NCBI GenBank assembly: GCA_023254095.1
Contig: JALNLM010000010.1
Coordinates: 1-48,378, forward strand
Source: Candidatus Geocrenenecus huangii
GTDB lineage: Archaea > Thermoproteota > Nitrososphaeria_A > Caldarchaeales > Wolframiiraptoraceae
Length of the DNA: 48,378 nt
Direction: 5' to 3'
In this document: in pieces, positions 12,102 through 42,733 of the stretch
Position numbering within the stretch: the first letter of the stretch is position 1
Layout of the letters: the number at the start of each line of letters is the position of its first letter
Notes under the pieces: generated by a model
What the model was told of the DNA's origin: nothing
Databases searched by the model: none
The model's input: only the letters and a program-made list of their open reading frames with translations
Made by a program: the position numbers and the translations under genes

Positions 12102-12437
12102 ATGGATATCAAGATAGAATATCAATCTATAGACGAGGATTTATGGAGGAGTGCAAAAGATAATGCTGTAACCTTGTTGAAGACTGATAGGTTGGAGATC
12201 GGTATACTTGAGATTTCTCCGGGTGTAAGGTTTCCTAAAGAAGGCTACAGCATCCATAGCGAGAATGATGAGTTTGCATATGTTTTATCTGGAGAAGTGG
12301 TTTTCAGCGCTGATAAAGAATCTATCAAGCTGAGAGAAGGAATGATACTGTATAACAAGAAAGGTACACCTCACGCTACTGCGAACCTCAGCAGTAAACC
12401 TGCAAGAGTTCTATGGATTCTTTCTCCTCCGAGGTAG
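12102..12437 (+). CDS. Cupin-domain protein
   Basis: H...EFAYVLSG and GTPH..N cupin motifs. Confidence 0.85.
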   Translation: MDIKIEYQSIDEDLWRSAKDNAVTLLKTDRLEIGILEISPGVRFPKEGYSIHSENDEFAYVLSGEVVFSADKESIKLREGMILYNKKGTPHATANLSSKPARVLWILSPPR

Positions 12438-12447
12438 GTGGCTCAAC

Positions 12448-13554
12448 TTGTACAAGGATAGGATCGAGAAGATTAGAAGGTTAATGGACGACCAAGGTAT
12501 AGATATTGTAATGATTACGTCTGAGCCTAATATGTTATACTTTTCAGGATATAGTGCAGTATCTCTTGAAAGATTGATTGCGTTATTGATAAATAGAGAA
12601 GAAGAAAAGGTGTCTCTCATTGTCCCGAGACTGGAGGAGAAGAGAGCTGAAGAAAACTGTAAATTAACGGATTTCGAATTGATAAGCTACAGCGATACAG
12701 AGAATCCAATCAACATCCTTGAGAAGGTCTTCTATAAAAGCAGACAGGTGACTATAGGCGTCGAAGAAACAATACCATTCAAATATGTTTATCCTATAAT
12801 CAGCAAATATGTGAGTATAAGGTATTCATTGGTAAATGATTTGATATATTCTCTGAGGATTGTTAAAGAACCTGAGGAGATAGAAGCTCTAAGGAAAGCT
12901 GCTGAGATAAATAATCGAGTTTTACTAGAGGCTATAAGGAATATTAGAGAAGGCTTATCGGAGAAGAGCGTCATGATGCATATCAAGAATTACGCCTTCG
13001 AGGCTGGAGCTGATGAAGTATCTTTCGCGCTAGTACAGAGCGGAAGTCATTCTGCATTACCTCACCAAGAACCCACAGACAAGATAATCCATAGTGGGGA
13101 CGCAGTTGTTCTAGACATAGGGATTAGATACAGAGGATATTATTCCGATTTAACGAGAACGGTTGTATGCGGCTCTCCATCAACCAAGCATGTAGAGATA
13201 TTCAACATAGTATCAAATGCCCAGCAAAATGCGCTAGATGCAATTAAAGAAGATATAAAAGCAGAGGACGTAGATCTCGTAGCCCGTAGAACTATTGAAT
13301 CATATGGTTATGGAGAATATTTTATACATAGGACTGGACATGGTATTGGACTAGAAGTTCATGAGCCACCATTCATTAAGGTCGGCAACACGAACCTACT
13401 GAAGAATGGGATGGCCTTCACGGTTGAGCCGGGAATATACTTACCAGATCAATTCGGTGTAAGATTGGAAGATAATGTTATAGTAAGTAGAGGTGGGTAC
13501 ATCAATCTAGCCAGCATACCTAAATCACTCTACATAGAAGACTACGATGTATAA
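12448..13554 (+). CDS. pepQ: Xaa-Pro dipeptidase / M24B metallopeptidase with creatinase-type N-domain
   Basis: All five metal ligands present: LDIG, SDLTRT, HRTGHGIGLEVHE, VEPGIY, RLED. Confidence 0.85.
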   Translation: MYKDRIEKIRRLMDDQGIDIVMITSEPNMLYFSGYSAVSLERLIALLINREEEKVSLIVPRLEEKRAEENCKLTDFELISYSDTENPINILEKVFYKSRQVTIGVEETIPFKYVYPIISKYVSIRYSLVNDLIYSLRIVKEPEEIEALRKAAEINNRVLLEAIRNIREGLSEKSVMMHIKNYAFEAGADEVSFALVQSGSHSALPHQEPTDKIIHSGDAVVLDIGIRYRGYYSDLTRTVVCGSPSTKHVEIFNIVSNAQQNALDAIKEDIKAEDVDLVARRTIESYGYGEYFIHRTGHGIGLEVHEPPFIKVGNTNLLKNGMAFTVEPGIYLPDQFGVRLEDNVIVSRGGYINLASIPKSLYIEDYDV

Positions 13555-13578
13555 AGTAAGAAAAGGCGGAAATAGTTA

Positions 13579-14541
13579 TTATTCGTAAAGCCAGCATCTG
13601 ACGATGTGATTACTGTCTAGCACGATGTCCGGAGGATCCCGTTGACTGCATACAGGCTTAGCGAATGGACATCGAGTATGGAATCTGCACCCGTTTGGAG
13701 GCTTAACCGCGCTCGGTATCTCGCCTATCGACTCTATACCCTTAGGTTTGATTTTTTCATCCTCTTCAGATAACGTAGGTATCGAAGATAGAAGCATCTG
13801 TGTATATGGATGCATAGGCGACTTGAAGAATTTCTCCGTTGGGGCTTCTTCATAGATTTTTCCAAGATACATTATCATTACGCGCTGCGAGATATTCCTA
13901 ACGACTCCAAGGTCGTGTGTTATTAACAGATATGTAAGTTGGAGTTCTTTCTGGATTTTTACAAGCGTGTTGAGGACTTTTGCTTGAGAAGATACATCTA
14001 GCGCAGAAGTTGACTCATCGAGGATTATGAATGATGGTTGTGGAGCCAGAGCACGAGCTACTGCAACCAGCTGTTTTTCTCCTCCACCAAGTTCATGAGG
14101 ATACTTGAACATGAATTCTTCGCTTAACCCAACATACTCCAGTAATTCTGCTACTTTATCGTATATCCTCCTCTTATCAATAGTCTTATGTATTAAGAGA
14201 GGTAGGCTGATAATATCTTTCACTAATCTCTTAGGGTTCAGAGATGTTCCAGGGTCTTGGAAGACTATCTGTATGTCTCTCTTTAATTCTAACGGTCTCT
14301 TCTTCATCGGCGCTGATAAGTCGTATCTGTTCTTGTAGATTATCTTGCCATCGTCTGGAGAGTAGAAGCCCATTATGACGTGGCCTGTAGTCGTCTTACC
14401 GGAACCCGACTCTCCAACCAATGCTAGCGTCTCACCATACCTTATGTTAAAGCTCACTCCATCAACTGCTCTAACTACGCCTTCAGCTGTATTGAAGTAT
14501 TTTTTAAGGTCTGAAACATTTAAGATTATATCGTCTTGCAT
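13579..14541 (-). CDS. Oligopeptide/dipeptide ABC transporter ATP-binding subunit (OppF/DppF-like)
   Basis: GESGSGKT, FQDP, HPYT and GCRFHTRC C-terminal domain. Confidence 0.92.
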   Translation of the reverse strand: MQDDIILNVSDLKKYFNTAEGVVRAVDGVSFNIRYGETLALVGESGSGKTTTGHVIMGFYSPDDGKIIYKNRYDLSAPMKKRPLELKRDIQIVFQDPGTSLNPKRLVKDIISLPLLIHKTIDKRRIYDKVAELLEYVGLSEEFMFKYPHELGGGEKQLVAVARALAPQPSFIILDESTSALDVSSQAKVLNTLVKIQKELQLTYLLITHDLGVVRNISQRVMIMYLGKIYEEAPTEKFFKSPMHPYTQMLLSSIPTLSEEDEKIKPKGIESIGEIPSAVKPPNGCRFHTRCPFAKPVCSQRDPPDIVLDSNHIVRCWLYE

Positions 14542-29059: not shown

Positions 29060-30499
29060 ATGTCGCTTGAAGTAGATGTTTTAAGGTTTACCCGAAGAGT
29101 AGTAGGTAACTCGTTTGTAAGAAACATCATGAGAAGGCTCGCAGATGGAGATACTCATGGTTATCGTTCGAGGCTAGAGCACGTTCTATGCATGCTCGCC
29201 GGCGTTGCGTCACCACATGATAAATCAATTGAATGTATGATAGAGTACAGATTATTTGATTCATTTATTAAACTTGCGTTAAGATGCATGAACATCAATA
29301 GGGAAGAATTTGAAGCAGGTATAAGAGACCCGTCAATTAGAAGAGGTATAGAGCTTGTATTAAGGAGTTTGATACTTTACGGTGTTACAGTGCCGCAGAA
29401 GCTATGCTCACCATTCCTCATAGTCTGGAATTTTACCAATAAATGTAATTTAAGATGTAAGCACTGCTATCAGGATGCATCTCATCCATTACCAGGCGAA
29501 CTTACTTTAGAAGAAAAGTTGAATGTTGTAGGTCAACTGGATAGAGTGGGAGTACCGTTAATTGCACTAAGTGGTGGTGAGCCGACAATACATCCAGACT
29601 TCTTAAGAATTGTAGAAGAAGGATCTAGGAGAGGAATATACATGGCTGTCGCAACTAATGGTACCAGATTCTCAAATATGGGATTCGTAGAGAGAGCATT
29701 GAAAGCAGGATTAAAATATGTTGAAGTGAGTCTAGACTCTGTTAACCCTGAGATACATGATGAGATCAGAGGTGTGAAGGGAGCCTGGGAGGAAACTATA
29801 AGAGGAGTGAAGAATCTTGTAAAGATGAACGTCTCCGTCGGCTTAGCAATGACCGTTACAAAGCTCAACTATAGAGAGATCGAAGATATGGTTAAACTCG
29901 GAGAAGAACTAGGAGTAAAGAGAGTCATCTTCTTCAATTTTATACCTACAGGGAGAGGTAGAGATATAGTTAAACTAGATCTAAAGCCCGCTGAGAGAGA
30001 AGAGCTCCTCAAGAAAGTGTATGAACTAGCACGTAAATCTAGAGTTCAGGTAGCTTCTACGGCTCCCCAGCTTGCTAGAGTATCATGGCAGATGAGTAGT
30101 GGGTCTGATTGTCTACCTACACACTTCACTCCACCTAAAAGTCAATCTCTAAGAGCCTTAGCAGAATTCATAGGAGGATGCGGGGCTGGGAGAATATATG
30201 CGGCTATACAGCCTGATGGAAAAGTTACTCCATGTGTTTTTCTGCCGATAATTGTTGGAGATTTGAGAACTGAGACTTTCCAAGAAATATGGAATAATAG
30301 CTTAGTTATGGAAAGGCTTAGAGATAAAGATTTACTTAAACAGCCTTGTGGAGTATGCCATTACAAGTATATTTGTGGAGGATGTAGAGCTAGAGCATAT
30401 GCATACTTTAATGATTTTCTAGCGGCTGACCCTGGATGCTTAAGAGGAAGCATCGTTAAATCGAGTCTAATCACTCAACCTATCCAGAAAAGCTTGTAA
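29060..30499 (+). CDS. Radical SAM/SPASM-domain protein with long N-terminal extension (candidate GMGT synthase-like)
   Basis: CNLRCKHC, SGGEP, GCGAG...TPC and CGVC...CGGCRARA...DPGC SPASM cysteines. Confidence 0.85.
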   Translation: MSLEVDVLRFTRRVVGNSFVRNIMRRLADGDTHGYRSRLEHVLCMLAGVASPHDKSIECMIEYRLFDSFIKLALRCMNINREEFEAGIRDPSIRRGIELVLRSLILYGVTVPQKLCSPFLIVWNFTNKCNLRCKHCYQDASHPLPGELTLEEKLNVVGQLDRVGVPLIALSGGEPTIHPDFLRIVEEGSRRGIYMAVATNGTRFSNMGFVERALKAGLKYVEVSLDSVNPEIHDEIRGVKGAWEETIRGVKNLVKMNVSVGLAMTVTKLNYREIEDMVKLGEELGVKRVIFFNFIPTGRGRDIVKLDLKPAEREELLKKVYELARKSRVQVASTAPQLARVSWQMSSGSDCLPTHFTPPKSQSLRALAEFIGGCGAGRIYAAIQPDGKVTPCVFLPIIVGDLRTETFQEIWNNSLVMERLRDKDLLKQPCGVCHYKYICGGCRARAYAYFNDFLAADPGCLRGSIVKSSLITQPIQKSL

Positions 30500-31232: not shown

Positions 31233-31643
31233 CTATCTTATTCTAGATATCTTGTAAGCTGGGATAATGGATACTACTCCGAGAATGTGTGCGATAGTAC
31301 AATACATACATATAGTGTTAAGAATAGCTAGCTCGATCCATAGTAAGGCCGCTACTGAAGGCACGCTCATTAAGGCCCATACTAAAACTAGATATGAAGC
31401 AGCTTTTCCATGCTTGTAGGATACAACTATCGTTAAGAATAGAAGTGTTAGAAACCATGCTAAGCCGAGAGTGGATAGAGGAATTCCATATATCTTAGAA
31501 TAGGGGCTGGTGATGACTTTATCACATTCTCCGACCCCAATCTTGCATACAGGCTGCCTCGAGGCATATTCCAGGTAGGATGATACAATTACCCCCATTA
31601 TGGAGATTATTATGAGAGTAAGTGTCCAGAAAGTTTTCTTCAA
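31233..31643 (-). CDS. Vitamin K epoxide reductase (VKOR) family disulfide-formation protein
   Basis: 4 TM helices, loop Cys pair C...C-x-V-x-x-S-x-Y-S, GIPLS, CMYC. Confidence 0.92.
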   Translation of the reverse strand: MKKTFWTLTLIIISIMGVIVSSYLEYASRQPVCKIGVGECDKVITSPYSKIYGIPLSTLGLAWFLTLLFLTIVVSYKHGKAASYLVLVWALMSVPSVAALLWIELAILNTICMYCTIAHILGVVSIIPAYKISRIR

Positions 31644-32308
31644 CTTATGGTCCCCTCTATAGCTTTAGCTAATATCTCTATAGAGCTTTCACCGACTATT
31701 TTTTGAACTATGTTATGAGAGCTATCAAGTATAATGAATGTCGGGGTTCCTTCGACACCATACTTGTCAAAGACCTCATAATTAACATCTAGCAGAATTG
31801 TTTGTGTCAAACCATATTTCTCGATTACACTCTTTAATTGCTCTTTCAACGGCGTCGAGATTACTAAGAAAACCATTCTATCACCATACCTTCTACTTAG
31901 TTCTTCTATTGTCGGTATCATGTTTATACAATGTCCACAATTTGGCTGGAAGAATTCTAGGAAAACTGGCTTTCCACTAAAATCCGATAAGCCTATGTAG
32001 CGTTCTAAAGAACTTGATGGGTCATATACTGGTAGAGAGAAATCGGAAGCCCGCTGTAGATTCGGCTTAGAAATAGTTATTTTACTTTGCTGCGTAGTAA
32101 CAGTGGTTGTTGTAGTTTGCTGTTCTAGAGCTGGGAGCCGAATAGTCAAGATGATAAGTGTTATAATCACAACTAGTAGCAGTACAGGTAAAATTACTCT
32201 AACCCCATAATATCTACCAGCATGATCGACCCTCATATGGTTCTTAAGACCGTACTCACTTCTAAAAGACTTCCCACAAACCTTGCAAACATACTTCTCT
32301 TTGTCCAT
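31640..32308 (-). CDS. Membrane-anchored thioredoxin-fold (TlpA/DsbA-like) protein with N-terminal C2H2 zinc finger
   Basis: YVCKVCGKSFRSEYGLKNHMRVDH, TM helix, Thr-rich linker, CGHC, GTPTF cis-Pro loop; 4-bp overlap with VKOR gene. Confidence 0.88.
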   Translation of the reverse strand: MDKEKYVCKVCGKSFRSEYGLKNHMRVDHAGRYYGVRVILPVLLLVVIITLIILTIRLPALEQQTTTTTVTTQQSKITISKPNLQRASDFSLPVYDPSSSLERYIGLSDFSGKPVFLEFFQPNCGHCINMIPTIEELSRRYGDRMVFLVISTPLKEQLKSVIEKYGLTQTILLDVNYEVFDKYGVEGTPTFIILDSSHNIVQKIVGESSIEILAKAIEGTIS

Positions 32309-32547: not shown

Positions 32548-34122
32548 TTATTTTGCATAAGCTCCAGGTTGTTTCCTTGGATCTGAAACTGCTAAGAATA
32601 GGTTATCTTTCTTAAATACTGATTGAACCGCTCCAAAGTATATGTCTGTTCCAGGATACATGGAGACTTCTCTAACTTCACCTATGTTTAGTCCTGCTTT
32701 GATAAGTCCGCTGCTCGAGATCTTATCCTTAATCAAGTCTTCTAAAACTACTCTGTCCCCTCTGACATGTATTCTTCCTTCGAGTACTGAGGAGACTGGA
32801 TCAAGTCTTCTTATAAAGTAGTTAGAGAGAGTCTGTACTAGCGAAGATATTATCCTCATACCTCCAGATGCGCCTATCACTATCGTTGGAGAGCCGTCTC
32901 TATCAAGTATGATTAATGGAGACATACTGCTCGCAGGCCTCTTACCTGGAGATATGGAGTTCGGATGATCTCTCTGAAGGGTGAAGTCATGCATCTCATC
33001 GTTTAGCAAGATCCCTTTAACAGTTATCCCTGAGCCCATAAAACATTCAATGGTTTCTGTGAGAGATACAAACATCTTACCTTTTCCATCTGCAATACTT
33101 ATATGAGATGTTCCACCTCTATCTCCAACTAGGTGGTAGGAGACTCTACCTTTTTCAATGGAATCTAGAGACTGTCTGACATGGTTTTCTGAAAGGAGCC
33201 TATTAAAATCCATCTCATTAAATAATGGGTCTGATATTATGGAACATCTTTCATCAATTATGTGAAAGAGAGTATGTGCAAGTCTTAGGTAATATTCTTC
33301 ATCTTTCAGTTCCGTCTCAGATAATATCTTTAAGGCTTCGATTAATAATATGCCTGAGCTTGGAGGAGGCATAGTTGCGAACTTTAAAATCTTACCTCCA
33401 ATTTCTAATTCATAGATGATTGGCTCCCTCCATATTGCCTTATAGCATGATAGATCTCTTAAGGAGAGGAACCCATTGTTGATAGAGAATATCCTATCGA
33501 TCTCTTCAGCTATCTCTCCTTGGTAAAAGTATTCTATATTGTCTCTAAGCATTCTTAGTGTTTGAGCAAATCCTCTATAGGATATTGTAGAATCCTCAGG
33601 ATATATTTTTCCATCTTTGAAGAATGTAGTGTAGCTTTCTGGGCACATCTTGAGTTTGTATTTTGCATTATCTAGATCTTTGTTCATGCATTTACTCCAT
33701 AATCTTGACACTCGACATGATTCCGCATACTTTATCACTAGGTCTATTATCTTACTCCACTTAAATTCTCCGAATTCTTGATGTAGCATCCAAAGTCCTC
33801 TTAATGTACCTGGAACGGCCACAGCTTTATAGCCGATCGAAGCATCTTCCTCACTTCTATAATCTTCGATTCTCGCTTTCTGTGGAGCTACTTCACGGTA
33901 ATCCAAAGCTCTAAACCCGTGGTCTTCTGAATATAGTAATGCGAATCCTCCTCCGCCTAGACCACTCCAACCTGGCTCGAGCACGTTCAAGAGTAATGAA
34001 GCAGCTATAGCTGCATCAACTGCATTGCCCCCTTCCCGCATTACTTCTAGAGATATGTGTGAAGCTACCGGCGAATGAGAAGATATTGCTTTTTCACCTA
34101 TAGAATATACGTTCTCAGACAT
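32548..34122 (-). CDS. ggt: Gamma-glutamyltransferase (Ntn hydrolase)
   Basis: GGNAVDAAIA, GLGGGGF, DYRE, VPG, TSH nucleophile, LNDEMHDF, PGKRPASSMSP, GASGG. Confidence 0.92.
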   Translation of the reverse strand: MSENVYSIGEKAISSHSPVASHISLEVMREGGNAVDAAIAASLLLNVLEPGWSGLGGGGFALLYSEDHGFRALDYREVAPQKARIEDYRSEEDASIGYKAVAVPGTLRGLWMLHQEFGEFKWSKIIDLVIKYAESCRVSRLWSKCMNKDLDNAKYKLKMCPESYTTFFKDGKIYPEDSTISYRGFAQTLRMLRDNIEYFYQGEIAEEIDRIFSINNGFLSLRDLSCYKAIWREPIIYELEIGGKILKFATMPPPSSGILLIEALKILSETELKDEEYYLRLAHTLFHIIDERCSIISDPLFNEMDFNRLLSENHVRQSLDSIEKGRVSYHLVGDRGGTSHISIADGKGKMFVSLTETIECFMGSGITVKGILLNDEMHDFTLQRDHPNSISPGKRPASSMSPLIILDRDGSPTIVIGASGGMRIISSLVQTLSNYFIRRLDPVSSVLEGRIHVRGDRVVLEDLIKDKISSSGLIKAGLNIGEVREVSMYPGTDIYFGAVQSVFKKDNLFLAVSDPRKQPGAYAK

Positions 34123-34126
34123 CCTA

Positions 34127-35101
34127 TCAACCTATTCTATACCAGTTCCTTAGTCCATCTCTATCTAGCTCGAGTATCACCCCTTTCAATATCCCAGAAG
34201 AATATTCTGAACCTGGATTAAATACTATGGTCTTCCCTACTTTATCGTATCCAGCCGATTCATGTATATGTCCATGGAGACCAATTATCGGTTTGTATTT
34301 TTCAATGAACTTTCTTACAGACTTGCTTCCAACATTTTCCTTCTCCATCTCTCCAAGACTATACACTGGTTTTAGATTCTTATCTAGCTTAGGAGCAACA
34401 TCTATAACCGTATTATAGGGTGGTGGATGGAAACAGCATATTATTTTGTCCCAATCTCTATCGACTAGGTTTACTGTCTTCTCCAACATCTTCCACAACT
34501 TGTTTTCTTCAGCTTCCCTAGGAGTATTCCATGGGGTCGGGTTAACGTGATCGAAGGAGACCATGCCATAGCCTAATGGTAGCTCTACTAATTTACCTAG
34601 AGGATACATATCTCTGATGCTTTTTTTCAATACTGGGTCTATATCTAAGATATCGTCGTTTCCAGGCATAACTATAACTTGCTTATCTTTCTGGACGTGT
34701 TCTTCTAGCATTACGACCCATCTCTTGATATTCTCAGTTATCAATGTTGAGAATAATCTGTTGACTTTTTCAGGATCTTTTTTCAGTTCTTCTACTTCTT
34801 CTCTACTACAAATATATGGATATACTCCACAATTCTTTAATTCATTCTTTGCTTGTTCCAAATTCTCTGATCCTTTAACTATGTTTGTTTTTCCTTTAAA
34901 GGTGTATTGATAGTTTTCTCCTCCGAGGTCTATTATTGGAATTATTGCTTTTCCAGTTAGGTCTCCTGAAAGTATCATAACATCTATTTCATGATGTTGT
35001 GGAATTGAGAGGAATCTTCTAAATACTAGCTCGCTATTATGGATATCAGCGACAAAGAATATTTTGAAGGAGCTCATTCCTCCTCTCGACCTTTCACTCA
35101 A
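34127..35101 (-). CDS. Calcineurin-like metallophosphoesterase (Icc-related)
   Basis: ADIH, SGDLTG, MPGNDD, FHPPP, LHGHIHE, FNPGS. Confidence 0.9.
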   Translation of the reverse strand: MSERSRGGMSSFKIFFVADIHNSELVFRRFLSIPQHHEIDVMILSGDLTGKAIIPIIDLGGENYQYTFKGKTNIVKGSENLEQAKNELKNCGVYPYICSREEVEELKKDPEKVNRLFSTLITENIKRWVVMLEEHVQKDKQVIVMPGNDDILDIDPVLKKSIRDMYPLGKLVELPLGYGMVSFDHVNPTPWNTPREAEENKLWKMLEKTVNLVDRDWDKIICCFHPPPYNTVIDVAPKLDKNLKPVYSLGEMEKENVGSKSVRKFIEKYKPIIGLHGHIHESAGYDKVGKTIVFNPGSEYSSGILKGVILELDRDGLRNWYRIG

Positions 35102-35147
35102 GACCTATATTAATAGTTGAAATATAAAAAAGATTATGGAGTTTTCA

Positions 35148-36806
35148 TTAAGCTGGAGGTATCTCGGCGAATATCTTTTCAGTCTTTATGCCCTTCTTCT
35201 TATTTGCCCAGTTATAGTATGAGTAGAGTATTATGGCTAGCAGTGTCCAGCCTATCATCCAGGAAGGCGATACAAACGTTACGTCTGCAGCCATTTGCTG
35301 TAAACCAAGTACTAAGAGTATAAATGTTGATACAATTGCCGCTCCTCCTACAATCGATATTACAGGGACTCCTCCAATAGTCTTCGTATAGCCCTCCTTA
35401 TAGACCTCCGGCCTCCTAAAGGGCAGGATCGTTGTAGCTATCGCTGATAGGAACCATCTAACGGCTACTGCCGTAACAGCTGTTATCGCATAGAATAGTG
35501 GTCCATATTCTGGAGATGCTAAAATTAATAGCATTAATATGGCTCCGACTATTACTAATGTTATAGACCAGTGTGGTGTCCTAAACCTATCATTAACTTC
35601 CGCCAGCTTCTCCGGGAAGAACCTATCAAATGATAATGCGAATGCGATTCTTGATGGTACCATCATGTATACGGGGATTCCATTCATTACCCATAATGGT
35701 ACAGCCAGAGTAATGATGATGGCGAGTATAGGTGCCCAGCCACCGAAGAGAGAAGCTATAAAGACCGCCCAGGTAGGTGTCTGTACAGGGTTGATTGCAA
35801 GCTGACTATAAGCGCTTTCGGTATTCATTACATACTCGTAGGCTGAGAAGAATTCTCTAAACCCTAGAAGAGTTAAAGATGATATCGAGAGATAGTATGC
35901 GAAGACGAGTATTATTGCTCCAACCGTTCCTAGGAAGAAGTTTCTCTTTGGCCTATCTATCTCTCCAGCCATGTAATTAGCGTATTCAAGCCCCCAGAAT
36001 GCATATGCTGAGATAACGATGCTGAGTGAGAGGGTTATCTCAGGAGACCATGGACCAGGCCAACCCCACTTAGAGGGGTCGCCAGTAGCCGATGCCACAT
36101 AATCTCTCCAACCTGTCGCTGACGCTACATTCATTATCTCATCATATGCCCCTGACCCGTAAGTCATATCCCATAGATTTCTTACCTGACTCGGCGTTAG
36201 AGATGCTGCGTATGCTGCTCCAGCTATAGTAGCTATTCCTGCTACTAGCGCTAGGAGGAAGAGTATGTTTATGACATATTTGTAGACTTTTACCCCTAGT
36301 AGGCTGATAACTCCAAATACCAATACGAAGAATATTCCGAGACCTATTGAAGCGACTGGGTCAGTGGAGAGCGATTCTCCCAAAGAAACCAAACCATTAT
36401 TATGTGTTGCTAATCCTACTTGTATTATCGCGCTTCCCCAGAACCAGGCCATGAAGTAAGACAATGCTCCTACGATCCAGATATGTACTCCGAGTACCAG
36501 TAGTGCCTCTATGTATCCTAGCAATGGGTGGAGTACCCTGGAGATTCCTACATAGTCTGAGGCAGTTCTAGGCATAGCCATGGTTAAGAAGATTACGGCA
36601 AATGCTGCTAGAGCCATTATTACTCCTCCAAGGACTAATGCTAATGGTATGTTTGCTCCAGGCGCAGAGTATCCTTGGCCAGCAGTAAATAGGTAGAACC
36701 CGTCCGCTATAACGTAGTTCGCGGCCATAGCCATGACCGAGAATGCGCCGATCTCTCTTACAAGCCCCGAAGTTCTTCTAACAAATACTATCTCCTCAGA
36801 ACTCAT
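35148..36806 (-). CDS. APC-superfamily amino acid/polyamine permease
   Basis: FVRRTSGLVRE N-terminus, about 12 TM helices, MPR, AGEI, SRIAFALSFDRFFP, TPH, EIPP C-terminus. Confidence 0.9.
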   Translation of the reverse strand: MSSEEIVFVRRTSGLVREIGAFSVMAMAANYVIADGFYLFTAGQGYSAPGANIPLALVLGGVIMALAAFAVIFLTMAMPRTASDYVGISRVLHPLLGYIEALLVLGVHIWIVGALSYFMAWFWGSAIIQVGLATHNNGLVSLGESLSTDPVASIGLGIFFVLVFGVISLLGVKVYKYVINILFLLALVAGIATIAGAAYAASLTPSQVRNLWDMTYGSGAYDEIMNVASATGWRDYVASATGDPSKWGWPGPWSPEITLSLSIVISAYAFWGLEYANYMAGEIDRPKRNFFLGTVGAIILVFAYYLSISSLTLLGFREFFSAYEYVMNTESAYSQLAINPVQTPTWAVFIASLFGGWAPILAIIITLAVPLWVMNGIPVYMMVPSRIAFALSFDRFFPEKLAEVNDRFRTPHWSITLVIVGAILMLLILASPEYGPLFYAITAVTAVAVRWFLSAIATTILPFRRPEVYKEGYTKTIGGVPVISIVGGAAIVSTFILLVLGLQQMAADVTFVSPSWMIGWTLLAIILYSYYNWANKKKGIKTEKIFAEIPPA

Positions 36807-36922
36807 GAGAAAAAATCTCGCATGCTTGCATATAAGATTTTAAGATTACAAAATACACGTTCATCATGATATTACATCCTGAAGGTCTTCCAAGTGTATC
36901 CTTCTTAAAAGTTAATTAGTCC

Positions 36923-38311
36923 GTGTATAAAATATCGGATATTATGAGTAAATTAGATAACATTATGGAGATTGTTGAGAGGAATAAAATCAAGTTCGTC
37001 AGGTTTATCTATGTCGGACTAGACGGGGTTCTAAGAGCTAAGTCGTCTTATCTAGATGAGCTTGAAGACCACTTAATCCACGGTATAGGTTTAACCATGG
37101 CGATGCAGTCTTTCACAGCTCTCGATACGCTACTATCAGAACCGAGATTCGGACCAGAATCGGAAGATATCTTCTTAGTCCCAGACCTAGAAACATTCTC
37201 ACCCATAACCTACGTAGAAGGACAGGGTAGGGTACTATGCGATATGAAGTTGAGAAATGGAGAAGAATGGGGCTTCTGTACTCGCAGTCTCCTCAAGAAG
37301 CTCTCGAAGAGATATAAAGAAGAACTAGGGATTGTTTTTCAGAGTGCTGCAGAAACCGAGTTCTACATACTGAAGCAGACGGCGCCCGATAAAGTTGAGC
37401 CAATAGATTGGGCGAGATGTTTCTCAACGGTCGGATATGACGCTCTTGGAGACATAATCTTAGAGATAATCGACGCGCTTAAAGCCTCGGGAATATCCGT
37501 AGTGAGGATCATTAAAGAATATGGTCCAGGACAAGTAGAGATAAATATGAAGCATAGGAACATATTAAGAGCCGCTGATGATATGGTTGTCTTGAGGGAT
37601 GTTGCAAAAGGTGTTGCGGCAAAACATGGTCTAGTGGCCACTTTCATGGCGAAGCCTTTCGACTGGCATGCGGGAAGCGGTATGCATTTCCACATAAGCG
37701 GTCTAGATACGGAGACAGGTAAAAACGTATTCTATGATAAGAACGATAAGAAAGGATTGAACCTATCTCGAACAGCATACTACTTCATTGGGGGAATCCT
37801 ACATCATATGAAGTCTCTATCGGCTATTGTAGCTCCGACGATAAATTCGTACAAGAGATTGATTCCTGGGTCATGGGCTCCATCGAACATATGCTATGGA
37901 TACAATAATAGGTCTGCAGCAATAAGAATACCGACTACGAGAGTTGGAAAAGAAGAGAAAAATATTAGGATAGAGTTTAGAACACCGGATGCAACCGCAA
38001 ACCCATACCTAGCGCTGGCGGCCACTATAGCGGCGGGGGTTCATGGGATTAGAGAAGAGATCGATCCCGCAGAACCCGTTAACGTAGATGCGTACAAGCT
38101 CTCAAAAGAAGAGAGAGCTAAGAGGAATATAGAACTTCTCCCTACAAGTTTGAGAGAAGCTCTAGAGTATCTTGATAGGGATGACTATCTTAAATCTGAA
38201 CTTGGCTCCGAGCTAATAGAAGAATACATAAAGATCAAGAAGGTTGAATGTGAATCCTATGAACATTATGTAAGCCCATGGGAGATTAAGAACTATGTCC
38301 CAGTATTCTAA
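36923..38311 (+). CDS. Glutamine synthetase-like gamma-glutamyl-amine ligase (PuuA/GlnA3-like)
   Basis: ETEFY, EYGPGQVE, TFMAKP, GSGMHFH, NSYKRL, NRS..IR, RIEFR..D...NPY; lacks the ammonium-site DGSS and has GSWAP instead of GYEAP. Confidence 0.85.
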   Translation: MYKISDIMSKLDNIMEIVERNKIKFVRFIYVGLDGVLRAKSSYLDELEDHLIHGIGLTMAMQSFTALDTLLSEPRFGPESEDIFLVPDLETFSPITYVEGQGRVLCDMKLRNGEEWGFCTRSLLKKLSKRYKEELGIVFQSAAETEFYILKQTAPDKVEPIDWARCFSTVGYDALGDIILEIIDALKASGISVVRIIKEYGPGQVEINMKHRNILRAADDMVVLRDVAKGVAAKHGLVATFMAKPFDWHAGSGMHFHISGLDTETGKNVFYDKNDKKGLNLSRTAYYFIGGILHHMKSLSAIVAPTINSYKRLIPGSWAPSNICYGYNNRSAAIRIPTTRVGKEEKNIRIEFRTPDATANPYLALAATIAAGVHGIREEIDPAEPVNVDAYKLSKEERAKRNIELLPTSLREALEYLDRDDYLKSELGSELIEEYIKIKKVECESYEHYVSPWEIKNYVPVF

Positions 38312-39272
38312 GATTAGAGAGATCTTAAACACCTTAAAGGATGTCGACGTTGACAAAGTCTTGCAGGCCGTGCAGGATAGGGTAAAAGTATATCCTACAC
38401 CACATTATCTACCGATTCACATAGAATATCTTAATGAGCTAGATCAGAAAGAAAACTTCTGTGGCGCGTTTAGTGCATCATACATCTTGAGAGGTTTAGG
38501 CTACAGGACCCACAGAAATGAAATAGTAGACCAAGACTATATAGCGTATCTTTCAAGAGTAAACGTAGACCCAAGAGACTTAGAAAAAATTAGGAAATTA
38601 AAGAATGAGATAGCTAGTTTATCAGGAGAAGAAGCTAGAAAGATTGTTGAGGAGAACAGAAGTATATGGTATAGGTTTGATGATCTTCCAACAACTGTGA
38701 AGTCTCAGGAGCTTGGCGCTAGCCCTGAAGGAATCACTTACGCAATCCATGAAGTAAGCATGTCTAAGCTTAAAGTAATACCTGTGAAGACCGTTAGTAA
38801 GACTGAGGATGAGCTCTTATCAAGCGAGAAAATGGCCGTCCTTCTAGAATTATTCAAGAAAGCTGAAGTATACAATGCACAGTTTATACTAAACTTGAAC
38901 ACGAGATACTTGTTAGACTCTGAGAAGATCTTTAAGTTATCAGAGAAGCTTCTGTTGGGAGAAGTGTTCCAAGAAGTTTATAGAGAAAGTGTTGGGCACT
39001 ATGTTGGATGTGCTGGCTTGATAGAAGTTAACGATAAGCCTTTAATCATTATAAGAGAAACGTATCGGAAGTATGGAGTACATCTTCAACCTGCAGAATA
39101 TGTTAGAAGAGCTCTAATAAGAGAGGATGGAAGGGAAGGTGGAGTCCTAATCATTGTTCCAGCAGATTTAGAAAAGGATCTTAAGAAGATGCTGAGTGAT
39201 AGAGGATTAAGGGTGGAGACTTGGGATAATGGAAGCCCATATACTCCGTTTACCAGCCGGCGAACCTTCTAA
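38295..39272 (+). CDS. Uncharacterised papain-fold-like Cys hydrolase
   Basis: Q-x4-CG (QKENFCGAF) followed by a helix, GHYV, IRETY; overlaps the GS-like gene by 17 bp. Confidence 0.6.
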   Translation: MSQYSKIREILNTLKDVDVDKVLQAVQDRVKVYPTPHYLPIHIEYLNELDQKENFCGAFSASYILRGLGYRTHRNEIVDQDYIAYLSRVNVDPRDLEKIRKLKNEIASLSGEEARKIVEENRSIWYRFDDLPTTVKSQELGASPEGITYAIHEVSMSKLKVIPVKTVSKTEDELLSSEKMAVLLELFKKAEVYNAQFILNLNTRYLLDSEKIFKLSEKLLLGEVFQEVYRESVGHYVGCAGLIEVNDKPLIIIRETYRKYGVHLQPAEYVRRALIREDGREGGVLIIVPADLEKDLKKMLSDRGLRVETWDNGSPYTPFTSRRTF

Positions 39273-40584
39273 CCTTCTCTTTATCTATTCTATCTTTTTC
39301 TAAGTCGTCCACAGCTTTTTCAAATATTTCTAATGCTTTCTCTACATCTTCACTACTCACCGTTAAGGGTGGGGTAATCTCTATGACGTTAGAATATGTT
39401 CCTACGTAAGTAACGAGTAGACCGAGCTCGAAGGCTCTATAGACGAGGCAGGCAGCCTCGAAGGTAGCGGGTGTCTTCGCTTTAGGGTCTTTAACCAGCT
39501 CAGCTCCTAAGATCATCCCCTTACCTCTAACATCACCTATTAGTTGATGTTTTTCTCTTATCTCGTTAAGCCTCTTCAAGATGTAGTCTCCCACTCTAGC
39601 AGCTCTTTCATGAATTTTATCTCTCAAGATTATGTTTATGGTTGCTAATGAAGCGACACAGCTAACTGGATGAGCGCTACTTGTGAAGAGATGGGCCGCT
39701 ATAGCCGCGTCCATGATCTCTCCTCTTCCGACGACCGCGCTTAGAGGGAGTCCGGAGGCCATGGGTTTAGCCATAGATATAACGTCTGGAGCCACATTTG
39801 AATGTTCTATAGCGAAGAACTTGCCTGTTCTTCCAAATCCGACTTTAACTTCATCGACGACTAAGCTTATCCCTCGATGCTTACAGATCTTATGTAGTTT
39901 GGGGATGAATTCTGGAGGTGGAACGATTACTCCGCCATCGCTTTGTATAGGCTCAATAATTATTGCAGATAAGTCTTCAGCTGGAGCATTCTCTATAACA
40001 TTATTCTCAAGAAAGTCTATACATAGTAACCCACATTCTGGATATTGTTGCTTGAATGGACATCTATAACAATAAGGATATGGAGCCTTCAAGGTGTTTG
40101 GGAATCCGATAAATCTTGTTAATGCTTTATGCCCAGATAAGCTCAGAGCCCCCATAGTCTGTCCATGATAAGATCCCTGAAATCCAAGCAGCCTCCTTCT
40201 ACCAGAATATATAGGCATTATCTTATAGATTAACTCATTAGCATCTGAGCCTGTTAAACCAAACCATACCTTCTTCTTGAAATCTCCAGGTGTTACCTCT
40301 ACTAATCTTTCAGCTAATTCTATTCCCACAGCGTTTGGGAAAGTAGTATGAGATGAGAATACTAACTTTTCTAGTTGTTTCTTCACTGCCTCGATTACTT
40401 CTGGGTTATTATGTCCTAGATTCGTTACAGCCCATTGCGATGAGAAATCTATATACTCTCTACCTTCTACATCCCAGATCTTTGAATTAAAAGCTCTATC
40501 AACTACTATTGGATAAAATCTTATACCTATAATTCTGCCAACTACACGTTCTTCTCTCTCCAAGTATTCAAGTACGCTAGACAT
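39250..40584 (-). CDS. Class III PLP aminotransferase (GABA/putrescine transaminase-like)
   Basis: DVEGREYIDF, LGH, GSDANE, SYHGQT, EPIQSDGG, DEVKVGFGRTG, MAKP. Confidence 0.9.
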   Translation of the reverse strand: MSSVLEYLEREERVVGRIIGIRFYPIVVDRAFNSKIWDVEGREYIDFSSQWAVTNLGHNNPEVIEAVKKQLEKLVFSSHTTFPNAVGIELAERLVEVTPGDFKKKVWFGLTGSDANELIYKIMPIYSGRRRLLGFQGSYHGQTMGALSLSGHKALTRFIGFPNTLKAPYPYCYRCPFKQQYPECGLLCIDFLENNVIENAPAEDLSAIIIEPIQSDGGVIVPPPEFIPKLHKICKHRGISLVVDEVKVGFGRTGKFFAIEHSNVAPDVISMAKPMASGLPLSAVVGRGEIMDAAIAAHLFTSSAHPVSCVASLATINIILRDKIHERAARVGDYILKRLNEIREKHQLIGDVRGKGMILGAELVKDPKAKTPATFEAACLVYRAFELGLLVTYVGTYSNVIEITPPLTVSSEDVEKALEIFEKAVDDLEKDRIDKEKVRRFAGW

Positions 40585-40638
40585 GCTTATAGTATCCCTC
40601 TTATGCCATATAAATTTATAAACATCTAGACTATTAAA

Positions 40639-41463
40639 ATGCCCGGAGTAAGGTTGATAGACGAATTTTCATCTAAAGTATTGAAGACAGCTCTCGAAAT
40701 CGTTGATGCAGCTCATAATAGAGGTGTAGTAGCAAGGATCTTGGGAGCAGTAGCGACGTACCTCCATTGCTGTAACGATACCCAGGCTCTAACATTCATC
40801 AAAAACGCGGGGAGACTTACTACCGGAAAGGTATTTACAGACGTGGACCTAATAGCTTACAGTAAGCAGCGGAAACAATTAGTAAACCTTATGAGAGAAT
40901 TGAATTTTGATGAGAATAAAATTATAAACGCATTGTTCGGATATAAGAGATTGTTGTTCTTTAAAGATCAGGTAAAAGTCGATATATTCTTTGATAAACT
41001 AGAATTCAGCCATGATGTATTTTTTGGGAGTGAGCCAGGTAAAGGAAGGCTTGAAATAGATTATCCCACAATAAGCTTAACAGACTTGATGTTAGAGAAG
41101 CTCCAGATACATCAAATAAATAAGAAAGATATAATCGATATAATAGCGGTCTTGATAGTGCATGATGTAGGCGATACAACTGAAAAAGAGGTCATAGATG
41201 GGAAGTATATAGGGAGCATATTGTCCGATGATTGGGGCTTCTGGTATGACGCACTTGAAAATTTGAAGAAAGTTGAGTACTTCGTAAATAAATTTAGAGA
41301 AGAGAACCTGTTGAGTTCTGACCAATCTACTAAGGTTCTCCAAAATATTGAAAAGATTAAGATAGCTATTGAAAATACTGAGAAGACTAAGAACTGGATT
41401 AAACGCTCTAAGATAGGTACCTCAAAACCATGGTATAGGGAAGTTGAAGATTTGAATGTTTAA
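40639..41463 (+). CDS. Stand-alone Pol-beta-superfamily nucleotidyltransferase-like protein
   Basis: ILGAVA (hG[GS]-like), TDVDL, KVDIF third Asp, C-terminal LEKL...KKDIID helix motif. Confidence 0.7.
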   Translation: MPGVRLIDEFSSKVLKTALEIVDAAHNRGVVARILGAVATYLHCCNDTQALTFIKNAGRLTTGKVFTDVDLIAYSKQRKQLVNLMRELNFDENKIINALFGYKRLLFFKDQVKVDIFFDKLEFSHDVFFGSEPGKGRLEIDYPTISLTDLMLEKLQIHQINKKDIIDIIAVLIVHDVGDTTEKEVIDGKYIGSILSDDWGFWYDALENLKKVEYFVNKFREENLLSSDQSTKVLQNIEKIKIAIENTEKTKNWIKRSKIGTSKPWYREVEDLNV

Positions 41464-41548: not shown

Positions 41549-42733
41549 ATGGTGAAGTTAATCCAGTTTTATAGCCCTCGAGGCTTAAAGCTCTCTAGGG
41601 CGGAAAACCAGTATGTATGGGATACCAATGGAAGAAAATATCTAGATTGTCATACTCAGTACGGGTCAATCTTTCTAGGACATAGAAACCCGAAGATAAC
41701 AAACGCTATCAAAGAACAGATCGATAAGATTTACGGAGCATATCCGGCATTTGATACAGAAGCTAAAGAGAAAGCATTAGAAAGTCTAAGCAAGATTCTC
41801 CCAAGAAAACTTGAATACGTATACATGTTGAACGGGGGAGGAGAAGCAGTAGAATTAGCATTAAAGATTACTAGAAAAATTACAGGAAGAAAGAAATTCA
41901 TCTCCTTCATCAATGCATTTCATGGAAGAACAATGGGGGCCTTATCTGTTACATGGAATCCAAAATACAGAGAGGGATACGATCCATTCCCATGGGATGT
42001 AAAATTCCTACCATACAATAAGGTTGAAGAACTGGAGAAAGAAGTAGACGATGGAATAGCCGGGGTCATCGTTGAAGTAATACAGGGAGAAGGGGGGCTG
42101 AATGAGGGATCAGTAGAATTCCTGAAAGCTATTAGAGAAGCATGTGATAAGGCGGGGGCACAGATGATTATAGACGAGGTCCAGACAGGCTTCGGTAGAA
42201 CAGGATATCTCTGGGCACATCAGATCGCAAACGTAGAACCCGACATACTAGTAGCAGGGAAAGCTATAGGAGGAGGATTTCCAGTAAGCTTAACTGCTGT
42301 TAAAACAGAACTTGGAGAAAAACTAAAAGAAGGAGACCATGGATCAACTTTTGGAGGAAATCCGATTGCATGTGCAGCCTTAACAGCCTCCATTCAAGTC
42401 TTACTAGAAGAAAAAGTAGTAGAAAGGGTAGCTCAAACAGGCAGGATATTTAGAGAAAGTCTTGAAAAGGTTAAGGAAGATTTTGGAGAAGTTGTAAGAG
42501 AAGTAAAGGGCCGGGGATTGTTCCTCGGCATAGAGACAAGATTTGAACCTACATCTATACTAAAACTATTACAAGATAATGGTGTGATAGCTTTAAGAGC
42601 TGGAAGACTGGTAGTAAGATTCCTACCTCCATACATGATATCTACAAAAGACATAGAGTATGCGGTGGGAACGCTTAGAAATGTTCTAAGCCAGGTAAAA
42701 GAAGAAAAAATAGTAACGAAAACACAAACCTAG
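41549..42733 (+). CDS. lysJ: [LysW]-aminoadipate/glutamate semialdehyde transaminase (ArgD family)
   Basis: AFHGRTMGALSVTWNPKYR, IQGEGG, DEVQTG, AGKAIGGG, HGSTFGGNP, RFLPP. Confidence 0.9.
   Translation: MVKLIQFYSPRGLKLSRAENQYVWDTNGRKYLDCHTQYGSIFLGHRNPKITNAIKEQIDKIYGAYPAFDTEAKEKALESLSKILPRKLEYVYMLNGGGEAVELALKITRKITGRKKFISFINAFHGRTMGALSVTWNPKYREGYDPFPWDVKFLPYNKVEELEKEVDDGIAGVIVEVIQGEGGLNEGSVEFLKAIREACDKAGAQMIIDEVQTGFGRTGYLWAHQIANVEPDILVAGKAIGGGFPVSLTAVKTELGEKLKEGDHGSTFGGNPIACAALTASIQVLLEEKVVERVAQTGRIFRESLEKVKEDFGEVVREVKGRGLFLGIETRFEPTSILKLLQDNGVIALRAGRLVVRFLPPYMISTKDIEYAVGTLRNVLSQVKEEKIVTKTQT

What the first reader, a model, noticed from the sequence alone, without database searches (positions are those of the whole stretch)
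34127..41463. Candidate writer/eraser pair: stand-alone nucleotidyltransferase plus metallophosphoesterase around a GS-like enzyme
Seen: 40639-41463 has the hG-x, DhD, third Asp and K...KD..D pattern of Pol-beta/AbiEii-like NTases with no adjacent antitoxin or HEPN gene; 34127-35101 is a complete calcineurin-like phosphoesterase in the permease operon. Established: bacterial GS is controlled by reversible adenylylation (GlnE) and PII by uridylylation (GlnD, NTase plus HD hydrolase). Inference: the two proteins form a split, reversible NMPylation switch acting on the ligase, permease or aminotransferase, or they activate and release a phospho-amine substrate.
Basis: inference. Interest (0 to 1): 0.75.

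Follow-up and report, generated by a model that had tools for sequence, protein, structure and literature searches.

The report
Permease with nucleotidyltransferase and phosphoesterase partners
The two enzymes really are a functionally linked pair, but their constant third partner across archaea and bacteria is a special amino-acid-type permease and not the glutamine-synthetase-like enzyme, so this is an undescribed three-gene unit that probably controls or serves nitrogen-compound uptake.

Summary

- In 47 related loci with at least 4 kb on both flanks, an MPE homologue is present in 44 and a permease homologue in 44.
- In 201 genomes of the phylum, NT occurs in 27, this MPE in 26 and this permease subfamily in 28. 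The same 26 genomes hold all three, even where the genes are unlinked.
- Bacterial relatives keep the trio.

The GS-like gene, DUF6885, aminotransferase and GGT are a lineage-specific insertion (at most 10 of 80 loci), so the ligase is not the general target.

The permease subfamily has its own cytosolic marks: an N-terminal R-x-x-S/T-G-L and a C-terminal E-I/V-P-P-x end. Some bacteria fuse this NT domain to a Fic domain.

Best reading (about 0.4): a reversible nucleotidylylation switch on the permease. Main rival: the enzymes act on the imported compound. No biochemistry exists.

The parts
40639..41463 (+). NT: 274-aa Pol-beta-fold nucleotidyltransferase of an unnamed DUF1814-like family. Residues G36, D68, D70, D115, K154 and K163-D164-x-x-D167 are invariant.
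34127..35101 (-). MPE: calcineurin-like metallophosphoesterase with all metal ligands and GNDD in place of GNH[DE]. The likely start is the ATG at 35077.
35148..36806 (-). APC-superfamily permease of a special subfamily. It has an N-terminal cytosolic V-R-R-T-S13-G-L-V-R and the C-terminal end ...F-A-E-I-P-P-A. It is the third constant member of the module.
36923..38311 (+). GS-like ligase. It is closest to gamma-glutamylputrescine synthetase (432.8 bits, below the 650-bit cut-off). It is a lineage-specific insertion between the permease-MPE pair and NT.
38295..39272 (+). DUF6885 protein. Its start overlaps the end of the GS-like gene by 17 nt. It belongs to the lineage-specific insertion.
39250..40584 (-). 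Class-III aminotransferase/racemase-family protein (AT3a), divergent from NT. A homologue lies near the trio in 20 of 80 loci.
32548..34122 (-). Gamma-glutamyltranspeptidase, 4 nt downstream of MPE in the same operon. It is lineage-specific (8 of 80 loci).

Best explanation
The NT and the MPE are the two soluble members of a conserved three-gene module. Its third member is a dedicated subfamily of APC-type amino-acid/amine permeases.

Shown: the three families are inherited together in archaea and bacteria.

Inferred mechanism:
- The NT transfers an NMP from an NTP onto a hydroxyl group of the permease. The best candidate site is the Ser/Thr of the family-specific cytosolic N-terminal motif R-x-x-S/T-G-L (Ser13 here).
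- The MPE hydrolyses that phosphodiester again.
- Uptake of nitrogen compounds is thereby switched on and off after translation.
- The family-specific C-terminal tail (E-I/V-P-P-x-COOH) would be the docking site for one of the two enzymes.

In this archaeon (Caldarchaeales-like), a gamma-glutamylation route for an amine (GS-like, DUF6885, aminotransferase, GGT) has been inserted into the module. That route tells us what this particular permease probably imports. It does not tell us what NT and MPE act on.
For: (1) Linkage
- tblastn with the window's proteins finds an MPE homologue in 69 of 80 related loci and a permease homologue in 45 of 80.
- With all cluster members as queries the counts are 70 of 80 and 64 of 80. 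Among the 47 loci with at least 4 kb on both sides they are 44 and 44, and both lie within 4 kb in 36.
- Gene order and orientation vary between lineages while the trio persists.

(2) Genome-level co-occurrence in 201 genomes of the phylum
- NT is in 27.
- Full-length MPE matches (E 1e-87 or better) are in 26.
- The permease subfamily is in 28.
- The same 26 genomes hold all three, including complete genomes in which NT and MPE lie hundreds of kb apart.

(3) Bacterial relatives
- 16 of 18 bacterial loci (Actinomycetota, Chloroflexota) have the MPE within 3 kb of NT. The permease is seen in 4 of 18, with short flanks.

(4) Constant enzymes, varying context
- Median pairwise identity over 46 loci is NT 50.4%, MPE 43.0% and permease 25.1%.
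- The neighbouring catabolic genes change from lineage to lineage: ornithine cyclodeaminase, OTC with a DDAH/ADI-like gene, CN-hydrolase, aldehyde dehydrogenase, AOR, Fe-ADH, formamidase, GS-like.
- Some genomes have 1 NT with 2-4 MPEs and 5-7 permeases.
- An enzyme acting on the cargo should vary with the cargo.

(5) Family-specific cytosolic marks on the permease
- 55 of 56 complete permease ORFs carry R-x-x-S-G-L near the N-terminus, and 55 of 56 end in [IVL]-P-P-x. None of 434 other ORFs of at least 300 aa in the same loci carries either.
- Unlinked paralogues keep both marks (12 of 12 fetched).
- Bacterial members have S or T at the hydroxyl position.
- The two genomes that hold a related permease but no NT or MPE have permeases lacking the S/T-G motif.
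- The only other APC permease of this genome lacks both marks.

(6) Fic fusions
- In a bacterial class, 4 of 4 examined places with partial NT matches encode Fic_N + Fic + a complete NT domain (hhalign probability 99.8, E 1.2e-27). One of the four looks degenerate in its middle part. One of the intact fusions lies directly behind a trio.
- All characterised Fic targets that I know of are proteins (recalled).

(7) Precedent for the eraser
Against:
- The best structural relatives of the NT modify small molecules (ANT(2''), LnuA) or tRNA (MenT1/3/4). None modifies a protein.
- The N-terminal motif overlaps the generic APC pre-TM1 segment, so it may be structural.
- In two genomes whole trios are multiplied (4-5 NT, 4-5 MPE, 5-6 permeases). 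That fits substrate-specific enzyme sets as well as it fits a switch.
- MPE and permease co-diverge more tightly (r 0.905) than NT does with either (0.733 and 0.704). NT could therefore act on something else. These correlations are inflated by shared ancestry.
- The context is catabolic throughout, which also suits a metabolic role.
- The Fic motif in the fusions reads H-P-F-V-G-G-N-G-R, with Gly where I recall Asp/Glu in active AMPylators. Their activity is therefore uncertain.
Confidence: 0.4

Rival explanations
1. Substrate-level chemistry. The permease imports an amine, amino-alcohol or amino acid. The NT nucleotidylylates a hydroxyl or phosphate of it, as ANT(2'') and LnuA do with amino-sugars. 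The MPE then cleaves the phosphodiester, either to release the compound or to leave a phospho-amine for a class-III phospho-lyase/aminotransferase.
For: - A class-III aminotransferase-family gene lies near the trio in 20 of 80 loci. Aldehyde-handling genes (Aldedh, AOR, Fe-ADH) recur.
- Whole trios are multiplied in some genomes.
Against: - NT and MPE are far more conserved than the permease (50%, 43% and 25%). The flanking pathways differ by lineage.
- A single NT co-exists with up to 7 permease paralogues.
- This reading does not explain the family-specific cytosolic termini of the permease or the Fic fusions.
- Nucleotidylylation followed by hydrolysis is a futile cycle unless the cleavage side differs.
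Confidence: 0.25
2. RNA-directed pair. The NT is a MenT/AbiEii-like enzyme that adds nucleotides to tRNA or other RNA 3' ends. The MPE trims them or heals the 3' ends, acting as an enzymatic antagonist. Together they would link translation to amino-acid supply.
For: - All four DUF1814 motifs are present.
Against: - No AbiEi/MenA-type partner recurs near the NT. Apart from NT itself, only MPE, permease and AT3 recur in 12 or more of the 80 loci.
- PADLOC has no match for the NT.
- About 50% identity across phyla and strict coupling to a permease family are unlike toxin-antitoxin modules.
- Pfam AbiEii does not match the window protein at all.
Confidence: 0.1
3. Second-messenger pair. The NT makes a nucleotide signal, the MPE degrades it (class-III-phosphodiesterase-like), and the signal gates the permease.
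For: - The MPE resembles the cNMP phosphodiesterases Rv0805, Lmo2642 and MPPED2.
- A CBS-domain gene sits beside the trio in 3 loci.
- One relative is fused to a phosphoribosyltransferase domain.
Against: - The permease has no recognisable nucleotide-binding domain. Its only large insertion (about residues 205-262) lies in a loop predicted to be extracellular.
Confidence: 0.08
4. The MPE acts on the NT itself. As in MenT toxins, the NT would be silenced by phosphorylation of a hydroxyl next to the catalytic aspartates (invariant T67 here), and the MPE would be the phosphatase that re-activates it.
For: - T67 is invariant directly before D68-x-D70.
- Auto-phosphorylation of MenT1 and MenT3 as a regulatory mechanism is described in PMC11375011. 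The word 'phosphatase' does not occur in its main text (passages read).
Against: - This does not explain the permease.
- The MPE co-diverges with the permease more than with the NT.
- GNDD-type MPEs look more like diesterases than protein phosphatases (recalled).
Confidence: 0.05

Closest known systems
AmtB-GlnK-GlnD, and GlnE acting on glutamine synthetase (reversible uridylylation/adenylylation in nitrogen control)
   Same: A Pol-beta-fold NMP transferase and an opposing hydrolytic activity are genetically tied to a nitrogen-compound transporter. The module sits among nitrogen-catabolic genes.
   Different: - No PII protein is among the genes that recur next to the trio.
- There is no HD domain and no second NT domain.
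- The eraser candidate is a metallophosphoesterase.
- The transporter is an APC permease and not Amt.
- The proposed target is the transporter itself.
- No sequence-level relation to GlnD or GlnE was found.
This comparison rests on established knowledge and is an analogy only.
DUF1814 nucleotidyltransferases (AbiEii, MenT1-4)
   Same: - Motifs I-IV are present, including the +DxxD pentad.
- Distant family members give weak hits to Pfam AbiEii and NTP_transf_5.
   Different: - No cognate antitoxin is present.
- The G-to-DxD spacing is 31 residues, not 15.
- Pfam PF08843 does not match the window protein.
- The family is strictly coupled to an MPE and a permease.
- It is highly conserved across phyla and not patchy or mobile.
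ANT(2'')-Ia and LnuA (small-molecule O-nucleotidyltransferases)
   Different: - Sequence identity is only 14%.
- Those enzymes lack the long C-terminal helical domain and the conserved tail.
- They are stand-alone resistance genes.
Uncharacterised MPEs aq_1956 (2yvt) and TT1561 (1uf3); MPPED2, Rv0805, GpdQ, PptH
   Different: - The two closest have no known function.
- The window MPE has extra inserts (about residues 45-130) and GNDD.
- None of them is known to pair with an NTase and a permease.
Fic-domain AMPylators/deAMPylators
   Same: Bacterial relatives fuse Fic_N + Fic to a full copy of this NT domain.
   Different: The window has no Fic domain. The fused Fic motif is non-canonical, judged against a motif recalled from memory.

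Membership tests
Pol-beta nucleotidyltransferase fold superfamily | alpha-beta-alpha-beta-alpha-beta core with hG[GS], [DE]h[DE] and a third carboxylate | tested here: met
   [not shown]
DUF1814 / AbiEii / MenT (Pfam PF08843) | Motif III lysine and motif IV +DxxD (PMC3985639) | tested here: met
   K154 and K163-D164-x-x-D167 are invariant. The motif definitions were read.
DUF1814 / AbiEii / MenT (Pfam PF08843) | Match to the family HMM above its gathering score | tested here: not met
   No hit for the window protein even at E up to 10. Among 15 distant representatives, 2 gave sub-threshold AbiEii hits (E 0.0028 and 0.031) and 5 gave sub-threshold NTP_transf_5 hits (best 30.7 bits, cut-off 31.2).
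DUF1814 / AbiEii / MenT (Pfam PF08843) | Cognate antitoxin gene (AbiEi/COG5340 or MenA) next to the NTase | tested here: not met
   The window neighbours are aminotransferases. In 80 loci, apart from NT itself, only MPE, permease and AT3 recur in 12 or more loci.
Calcineurin-like metallophosphoesterases (Pfam PF00149) | HMM match above cut-off, plus the DxH, GD, GN(H)[DE], H and GHxH metal-ligand motifs | tested here: met
   [not shown]
GlnD / GlnE type nitrogen-control nucleotidyltransferases | NT domain joined to an HD or second NT domain; PII or GS as target | tested here: not met
   No GlnD or GlnE model matched the NT in Pfam or NCBIfam. The protein has a single domain and there is no HD domain. 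The GS-like gene is present in only 10 of 80 loci. Target identity is not testable here.
APC superfamily permeases (Pfam PF13520) | HMM match above cut-off and about 12 TM segments | tested here: met
   89 bits against a cut-off of 27. The hydropathy profile is consistent. No solved relative was found by sequence.
Toxin-antitoxin or anti-phage defence system | Match to known defence models; patchy, mobile distribution | tested here: not met
   PADLOC has no hit for NT, permease or DUF6885. The MPE gives only a 43-residue generic hit.

The most novel reading that the evidence does not exclude
A membrane transporter is itself the substrate of a dedicated nucleotidyltransferase. A Ser/Thr in the permease's N-terminal R-x-x-S/T-G-L motif is reversibly nucleotidylylated by the NT and cleared by an MPE that docks on the invariant C-terminal E-I/V-P-P-x tail. 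This would be a previously unknown post-translational control of nitrogen-compound uptake, shared by many archaeal phyla and by soil Actinomycetota and Chloroflexota.
Probability: 0.3. Interest if true: 0.85.

Novelty: new variant of a known kind. Interest (0 to 1): 0.72.

Why it matters
The NT family has at least 1426 cluster representatives and no curated model. It always travels with one MPE family and one permease subfamily in two domains of life. I found no paper that describes the trio.

If the pair is a switch on the permease, it would be the first case of a transporter regulated by direct nucleotidylylation. It would also give archaea, which lack GlnD and GlnE (recalled), a nitrogen-uptake control of their own.

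If the pair instead acts on the cargo, it defines a new nucleotide-activated step in amine catabolism. Either outcome is testable with three small proteins.

Tried and rejected
- Sequence searches of the NT gave nothing usable: Pfam (only a chance DUF2624 hit at E 0.05), NCBIfam, PADLOC, and PDB by single sequence and by profile.
- Foldseek against PDB gave no match at E 0.001 or better, although every top row was an NTase. VIA-align was needed.
- The word-index search for longer, fused forms found none. Fusions do exist, though: NT with a PRTase domain and Fic with NT.
- GS-like ligase as the target: rejected as a general explanation because it is in only 10 of 80 loci.
- Toxin-antitoxin or defence reading: rejected (see the membership test).
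- RNA-library contigs from two runs of one study lie on the permease, GGT, GS-like, DUF6885, AT3a and LysJ-like genes, but none lies on NT or MPE. Contigs cannot show absence, so this says nothing about NT or MPE expression.
- DUF6885 has no solved relative by sequence and no paper.
- Earlier-findings look-ups by place and by sequence returned nothing.
- The GS adenylylation-loop tyrosine was looked at by eye only and is not used.
Full report
WHAT IS IN THE WINDOW

The window comes from an archaeon: it encodes topoisomerase VI B and CGI-121. The closest relatives of the genes studied are labelled Aigarchaeota, Caldarchaeales or 'Wolframiiraptor'. DNA runs that hold the stretch are hot-spring metagenomes.

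The region 32.5-42.7 kb holds these genes:
- On the minus strand, an operon of APC permease (35148-36806), metallophosphoesterase (MPE, 34127-35101) and gamma-glutamyltranspeptidase (32548-34122).
- On the plus strand, a GS-like ligase (36923-38311). Its best NCBIfam model is gamma-glutamylputrescine synthetase at 432.8 bits, below the 650-bit cut-off. It also falls below the GlnA cut-off.
- A DUF6885 gene (38295-39272) that overlaps the ligase gene.
- On the minus strand, a class-III aminotransferase-family gene (AT3a, 39250-40584).
- On the plus strand, the candidate nucleotidyltransferase (NT, 40639-41463).
- A LysJ-like class-III aminotransferase (41549-42733). In one relative (L009) it sits next to a LysX-like ATP-grasp gene, so it belongs to a different pathway.

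CHECK OF THE OBSERVATION

The NT has no match in several libraries:
- Pfam, even at E up to 10. The only hit is a chance one to DUF2624 at E 0.05.
- NCBIfam.
- PADLOC.
- PDB sequences, by single sequence or by profile.

It nevertheless has 843 homologues in one collection and 1426 cluster representatives in another: 842 at E 1e-10 or better and 119 at E 1e-30 or better. All named ones among the 120 listed are called 'hypothetical protein'.

In an alignment of 43 homologues with 44-89% identity to the window protein, 46 positions are invariant. Among them are G36, D68, D70, D115, K154, K163, D164 and D167. These correspond to motifs I-IV of DUF1814/AbiEii as described in PMC3985639 (passages read): hG[G/S]-x15-DhD, a motif III lysine, and the +DxxD pentad. 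The difference is that 31 residues separate G36 from D68.

The AlphaFold model is confident (pLDDT 91.1, pTM 0.90). Foldseek found no match at E 0.001 or better, but all its top rows are NTases. VIA-align against 48,161 chains gave the following:

|---|---|---|---|
| ANT(2'')-Ia | 11.6 | 152 | 3.4 |
| MenT1 | 11.4 | 168 | 3.5 |
| JHP933 | 10.2 | | |
| a fungal NTase-like protein | 10.1 | | |
| LnuA | 10.1 | | |
| TglT/MenT3 | 9.9 | | |
| MenT4 | 8.7 | | |
| TM1012 | 8.0 | | |

Of 15 distant representatives scanned, 5 gave sub-threshold NTP_transf_5 hits and 2 gave sub-threshold AbiEii hits. The NT fold is therefore real.

The MPE passes Pfam Metallophos (28.6 bits, cut-off 21.5). In 38 homologues the following are invariant: D11, H13, G38-D39, G139-N140-D141-D142, H217, H270 and H272. 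Its model has pLDDT 95.6. The best fold matches are:
- then MPPED2 (19.6), Mre11 (19.2), Rv0805 (17.5), GpdQ (17.4) and PptH (16.3).

Homologues start at the ATG at 35077, so the TTG at 35101 is probably not the start.

THE PAIR IS LINKED, BUT TO THE PERMEASE

A scan of one genome per species found 201 places that encode an NT relative. The best 80 were kept. They come from Caldarchaeales, Bathyarchaeia, Desulfurococcales, Sulfolobales, Methanomethylicia, a Korarchaeon, Thermoplasmata, DHVE2, Njord- and Baldr-archaeota.

Counts by method:
- tblastn with the window's own proteins: MPE homologue in 69 of 80 loci, permease in 45, AT3a in 20, GS-like in 10, DUF6885 in 8, GGT in 8.
- All-against-all clustering of 1098 ORFs from these loci: only three families recur widely, NT (73 loci), MPE (67) and permease (62). 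The next is AT3 with 19.
- All cluster members as queries: MPE in 70 of 80 and permease in 64 of 80.
- The 47 loci with at least 4 kb on both sides: MPE in 44, permease in 44, and both within 4 kb of NT in 36. The three without either are L009, L012 and L025.

The usual arrangement is permease, MPE, NT on one strand with gaps of a few bases. Other orders and orientations also occur, which argues for selection on the linkage.

In the window's own lineage, the GS-like gene, DUF6885 and AT3a lie between the permease-MPE pair and NT. One Desulfurococcales locus (L060) has a different insertion in the same place: GS-like, an amidohydrolase and a GATase_6-like gene.

GENOME-LEVEL CO-OCCURRENCE

In 201 genomes sampled from the phylum:
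- The NT profile matched 27.
- The MPE profile matched 45. Of these, 26 are full-length matches at E 1e-87 or better. The other 19 are partial matches at E 1e-21 to 1e-29, to another MPE family.
- The permease profile matched 28 at E 1e-30 or better.

The same 26 genomes carry all three. The exceptions are:
- G045, which has an NT with an in-frame TAG and neither partner.
- G003 and G191, which have a permease match only. Their permeases lack the S/T-G motif described below.

In several complete genomes NT and MPE lie far apart yet co-occur. Copy numbers are often unequal, for example 1 NT with 3 MPEs and 7 permeases in G163.

Bacterial relatives keep the trio:
- Of 18 bacterial loci (Solirubrobacterales, Gaiellaceae, Thermoleophilia, other Actinomycetota, Chloroflexota), 16 have the MPE within the 3-kb flank. 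Four show the permease.
- The five archaeal loci of that scan (Caldivirga, Acidianus, 'Aramenus') have no MPE within 3 kb.
- In one bacterial class, 41 of 151 genomes have NT matches, with up to 9 per genome.

WHAT THE COMPARISON SAYS ABOUT MECHANISM

Over 46 loci that hold one complete copy of each gene, median pairwise identity is 50.4% for NT, 43.0% for MPE and 25.1% for the permease. NT is the more conserved of the two in 94% of NT-permease pairs.

The catabolic genes beside the trio differ by lineage:
- ornithine cyclodeaminase;
- ornithine carbamoyltransferase with a DDAH/arginine-deiminase-like gene;
- CN-hydrolase;
- aldehyde dehydrogenase;
- aldehyde:ferredoxin oxidoreductase;
- Fe-alcohol dehydrogenase;
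- formamidase;
- class I/II and class III aminotransferases;
- GS-like ligases.

The permeases therefore probably carry different amines or basic amino acids, while NT and MPE stay nearly constant.

The permease subfamily has two marks of its own:
- An N-terminal, pre-TM1 R-x-x-S-G-L, in 55 of 56 complete ORFs.
- A C-terminus ending [IVL]-P-P-x, typically G-I-D-x4-Y/F-x-E-I-P-P-A/E, in 55 of 56 complete ORFs.
- The exceptions are one ORF cut by a contig end and one with a divergent C-terminal end.
- None of 434 other ORFs of at least 300 aa in the same loci has either mark.
- Twelve unlinked paralogues from two complete genomes keep both.
- Bacterial members have N-A-T-G-L or K-A-S-G-L, and end E-I/V-P-P-E. 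The hydroxyl is kept while the residue changes between Ser and Thr.
- The only other APC permease of this genome lacks both marks.

Hydropathy places the N- and C-termini in the cytosol. The one large insertion (about residues 205-262) falls in a loop predicted to be outside (a simple prediction).

Some bacteria encode proteins of about 690 aa with Fic_N and Fic domains followed by a complete copy of this NT domain. The hhalign probability is 99.8 with E 1.2e-27 over 243 columns, and all NT motifs are kept.
- I examined 4 of the 24 partial-match rows (15 genomes). All 4 are such fusions. One of them looks degenerate in the middle.
- One intact fusion lies directly behind a trio.
- From recall, Fic enzymes modify proteins. 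The fused Fic motif reads H-P-F-V-G-G-N-G-R, which by recall is not the canonical form, and an S-x-x-x-E-G inhibitory-helix motif is present.

EXPLANATION AND RIVALS

What is shown is a three-gene module. What is inferred is its chemistry.

My best reading (about 0.4) is a reversible nucleotidylylation switch on the permease: NT is the writer, MPE is the eraser, Ser13 is the candidate site, and the C-terminal tail is the candidate docking site. It rests on five points:
- NT and MPE stay constant while cargo pathways vary.
- Copy numbers are unequal.
- The permease has family-specific cytosolic termini.
- The NT domain is fused to Fic in some bacteria.
- PptH is an MPE that, from recall, removes a phosphodiester-linked group from a protein serine.

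Against it:
- There is no evidence of binding or modification.
- The nearest NT folds act on small molecules or tRNA.
- Whole trios are multiplied in G037 and G069.
- The context is catabolic.

The main rival (0.25) is that NT and MPE act on the imported compound. Lesser rivals are:
- a MenT-like RNA-directed pair (0.10);
- a second-messenger pair (0.08);
- MPE as a phosphatase acting on NT itself (0.05).

COMPARISON WITH WHAT IS KNOWN, AND NOVELTY

The NT is a divergent relative of DUF1814 enzymes. It fails the family's HMM and lacks an antitoxin partner, so I do not file it as AbiEii or MenT.

The closest functional analogy is AmtB-GlnK-GlnD. It shares no part with this module beyond the NT fold.

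Literature:
- Six searches found no description of the trio or of DUF6885. I saw listings only.
- I read passages of PMC6393860, PMC11375011 and PMC3985639.
- No supplements were opened.

Eight earlier notes of this scan describe the same trio in other genomes. I saw them after my own analysis. They agree with it but are not independent evidence.

EXPRESSION

Contigs from two RNA-library runs of one study lie on the permease gene (35206-36769) and on parts of five neighbouring genes. Such contigs do not prove transcription.

VERDICT

This is an undescribed, widely conserved module whose mechanism is open.

Noticed in passing
L131:1915-3984, L132:3565-5874 (-), L133:6334-8409 and 11524-13599 (bacterial genomes G337, G319, G229): Proteins of about 690 aa that join Fic_N + Fic to a full copy of the NT domain. 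Two of them are followed by an S9 peptidase with PD40 repeats. One lies directly behind an NT-MPE-permease trio. One copy looks degenerate in its middle part.
   Followed up: partly
protein P0205 (527 aa): A relative of the NT fused to a type-I phosphoribosyltransferase domain (Pfam Pribosyltran, E 7.7e-14).
   Followed up: no
G000:C2:1-531 (L086:4-534): A second NT paralogue in the same genome, cut by the contig start. Its best BLAST hit in the NT cluster is 60% identical. The profile searches found no second MPE or permease in this assembly (96% complete).
   Followed up: partly
G045:C4:92048-92869: A very close NT homologue (E 4.7e-135) with one in-frame TAG, in a genome without the MPE or the permease. 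It may be a decaying gene.
   Followed up: no
window 36923-39272: The GS-like gene and the DUF6885 gene overlap by 17 nt. They travel together in 7-8 related loci. DUF6885 has no solved relative by sequence and is not mentioned in any paper searched.
   Followed up: partly
window 31233-32308: A VKOR-family gene is followed by a thioredoxin/AhpC-like protein that carries an N-terminal C2H2 zinc finger (Pfam zf-C2H2, E 4.5e-7), an unusual combination. A radical-SAM/SPASM gene lies nearby at 29060-30499.
   Followed up: no
L060:4001-10804: A Desulfurococcales locus with permease-MPE-GS-like-amidohydrolase-GATase_6-like-NT, preceded by PdxS/PdxT and a class-III aminotransferase. It is a second, independent insertion of a gamma-glutamylation route into the trio.
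   Followed up: partly
window 35206-36769: In two metatranscriptome-library runs of one study, assembled contigs cover most of the permease gene. Small pieces lie on the GGT, GS-like, DUF6885, AT3a and LysJ-like genes.
   Followed up: partly
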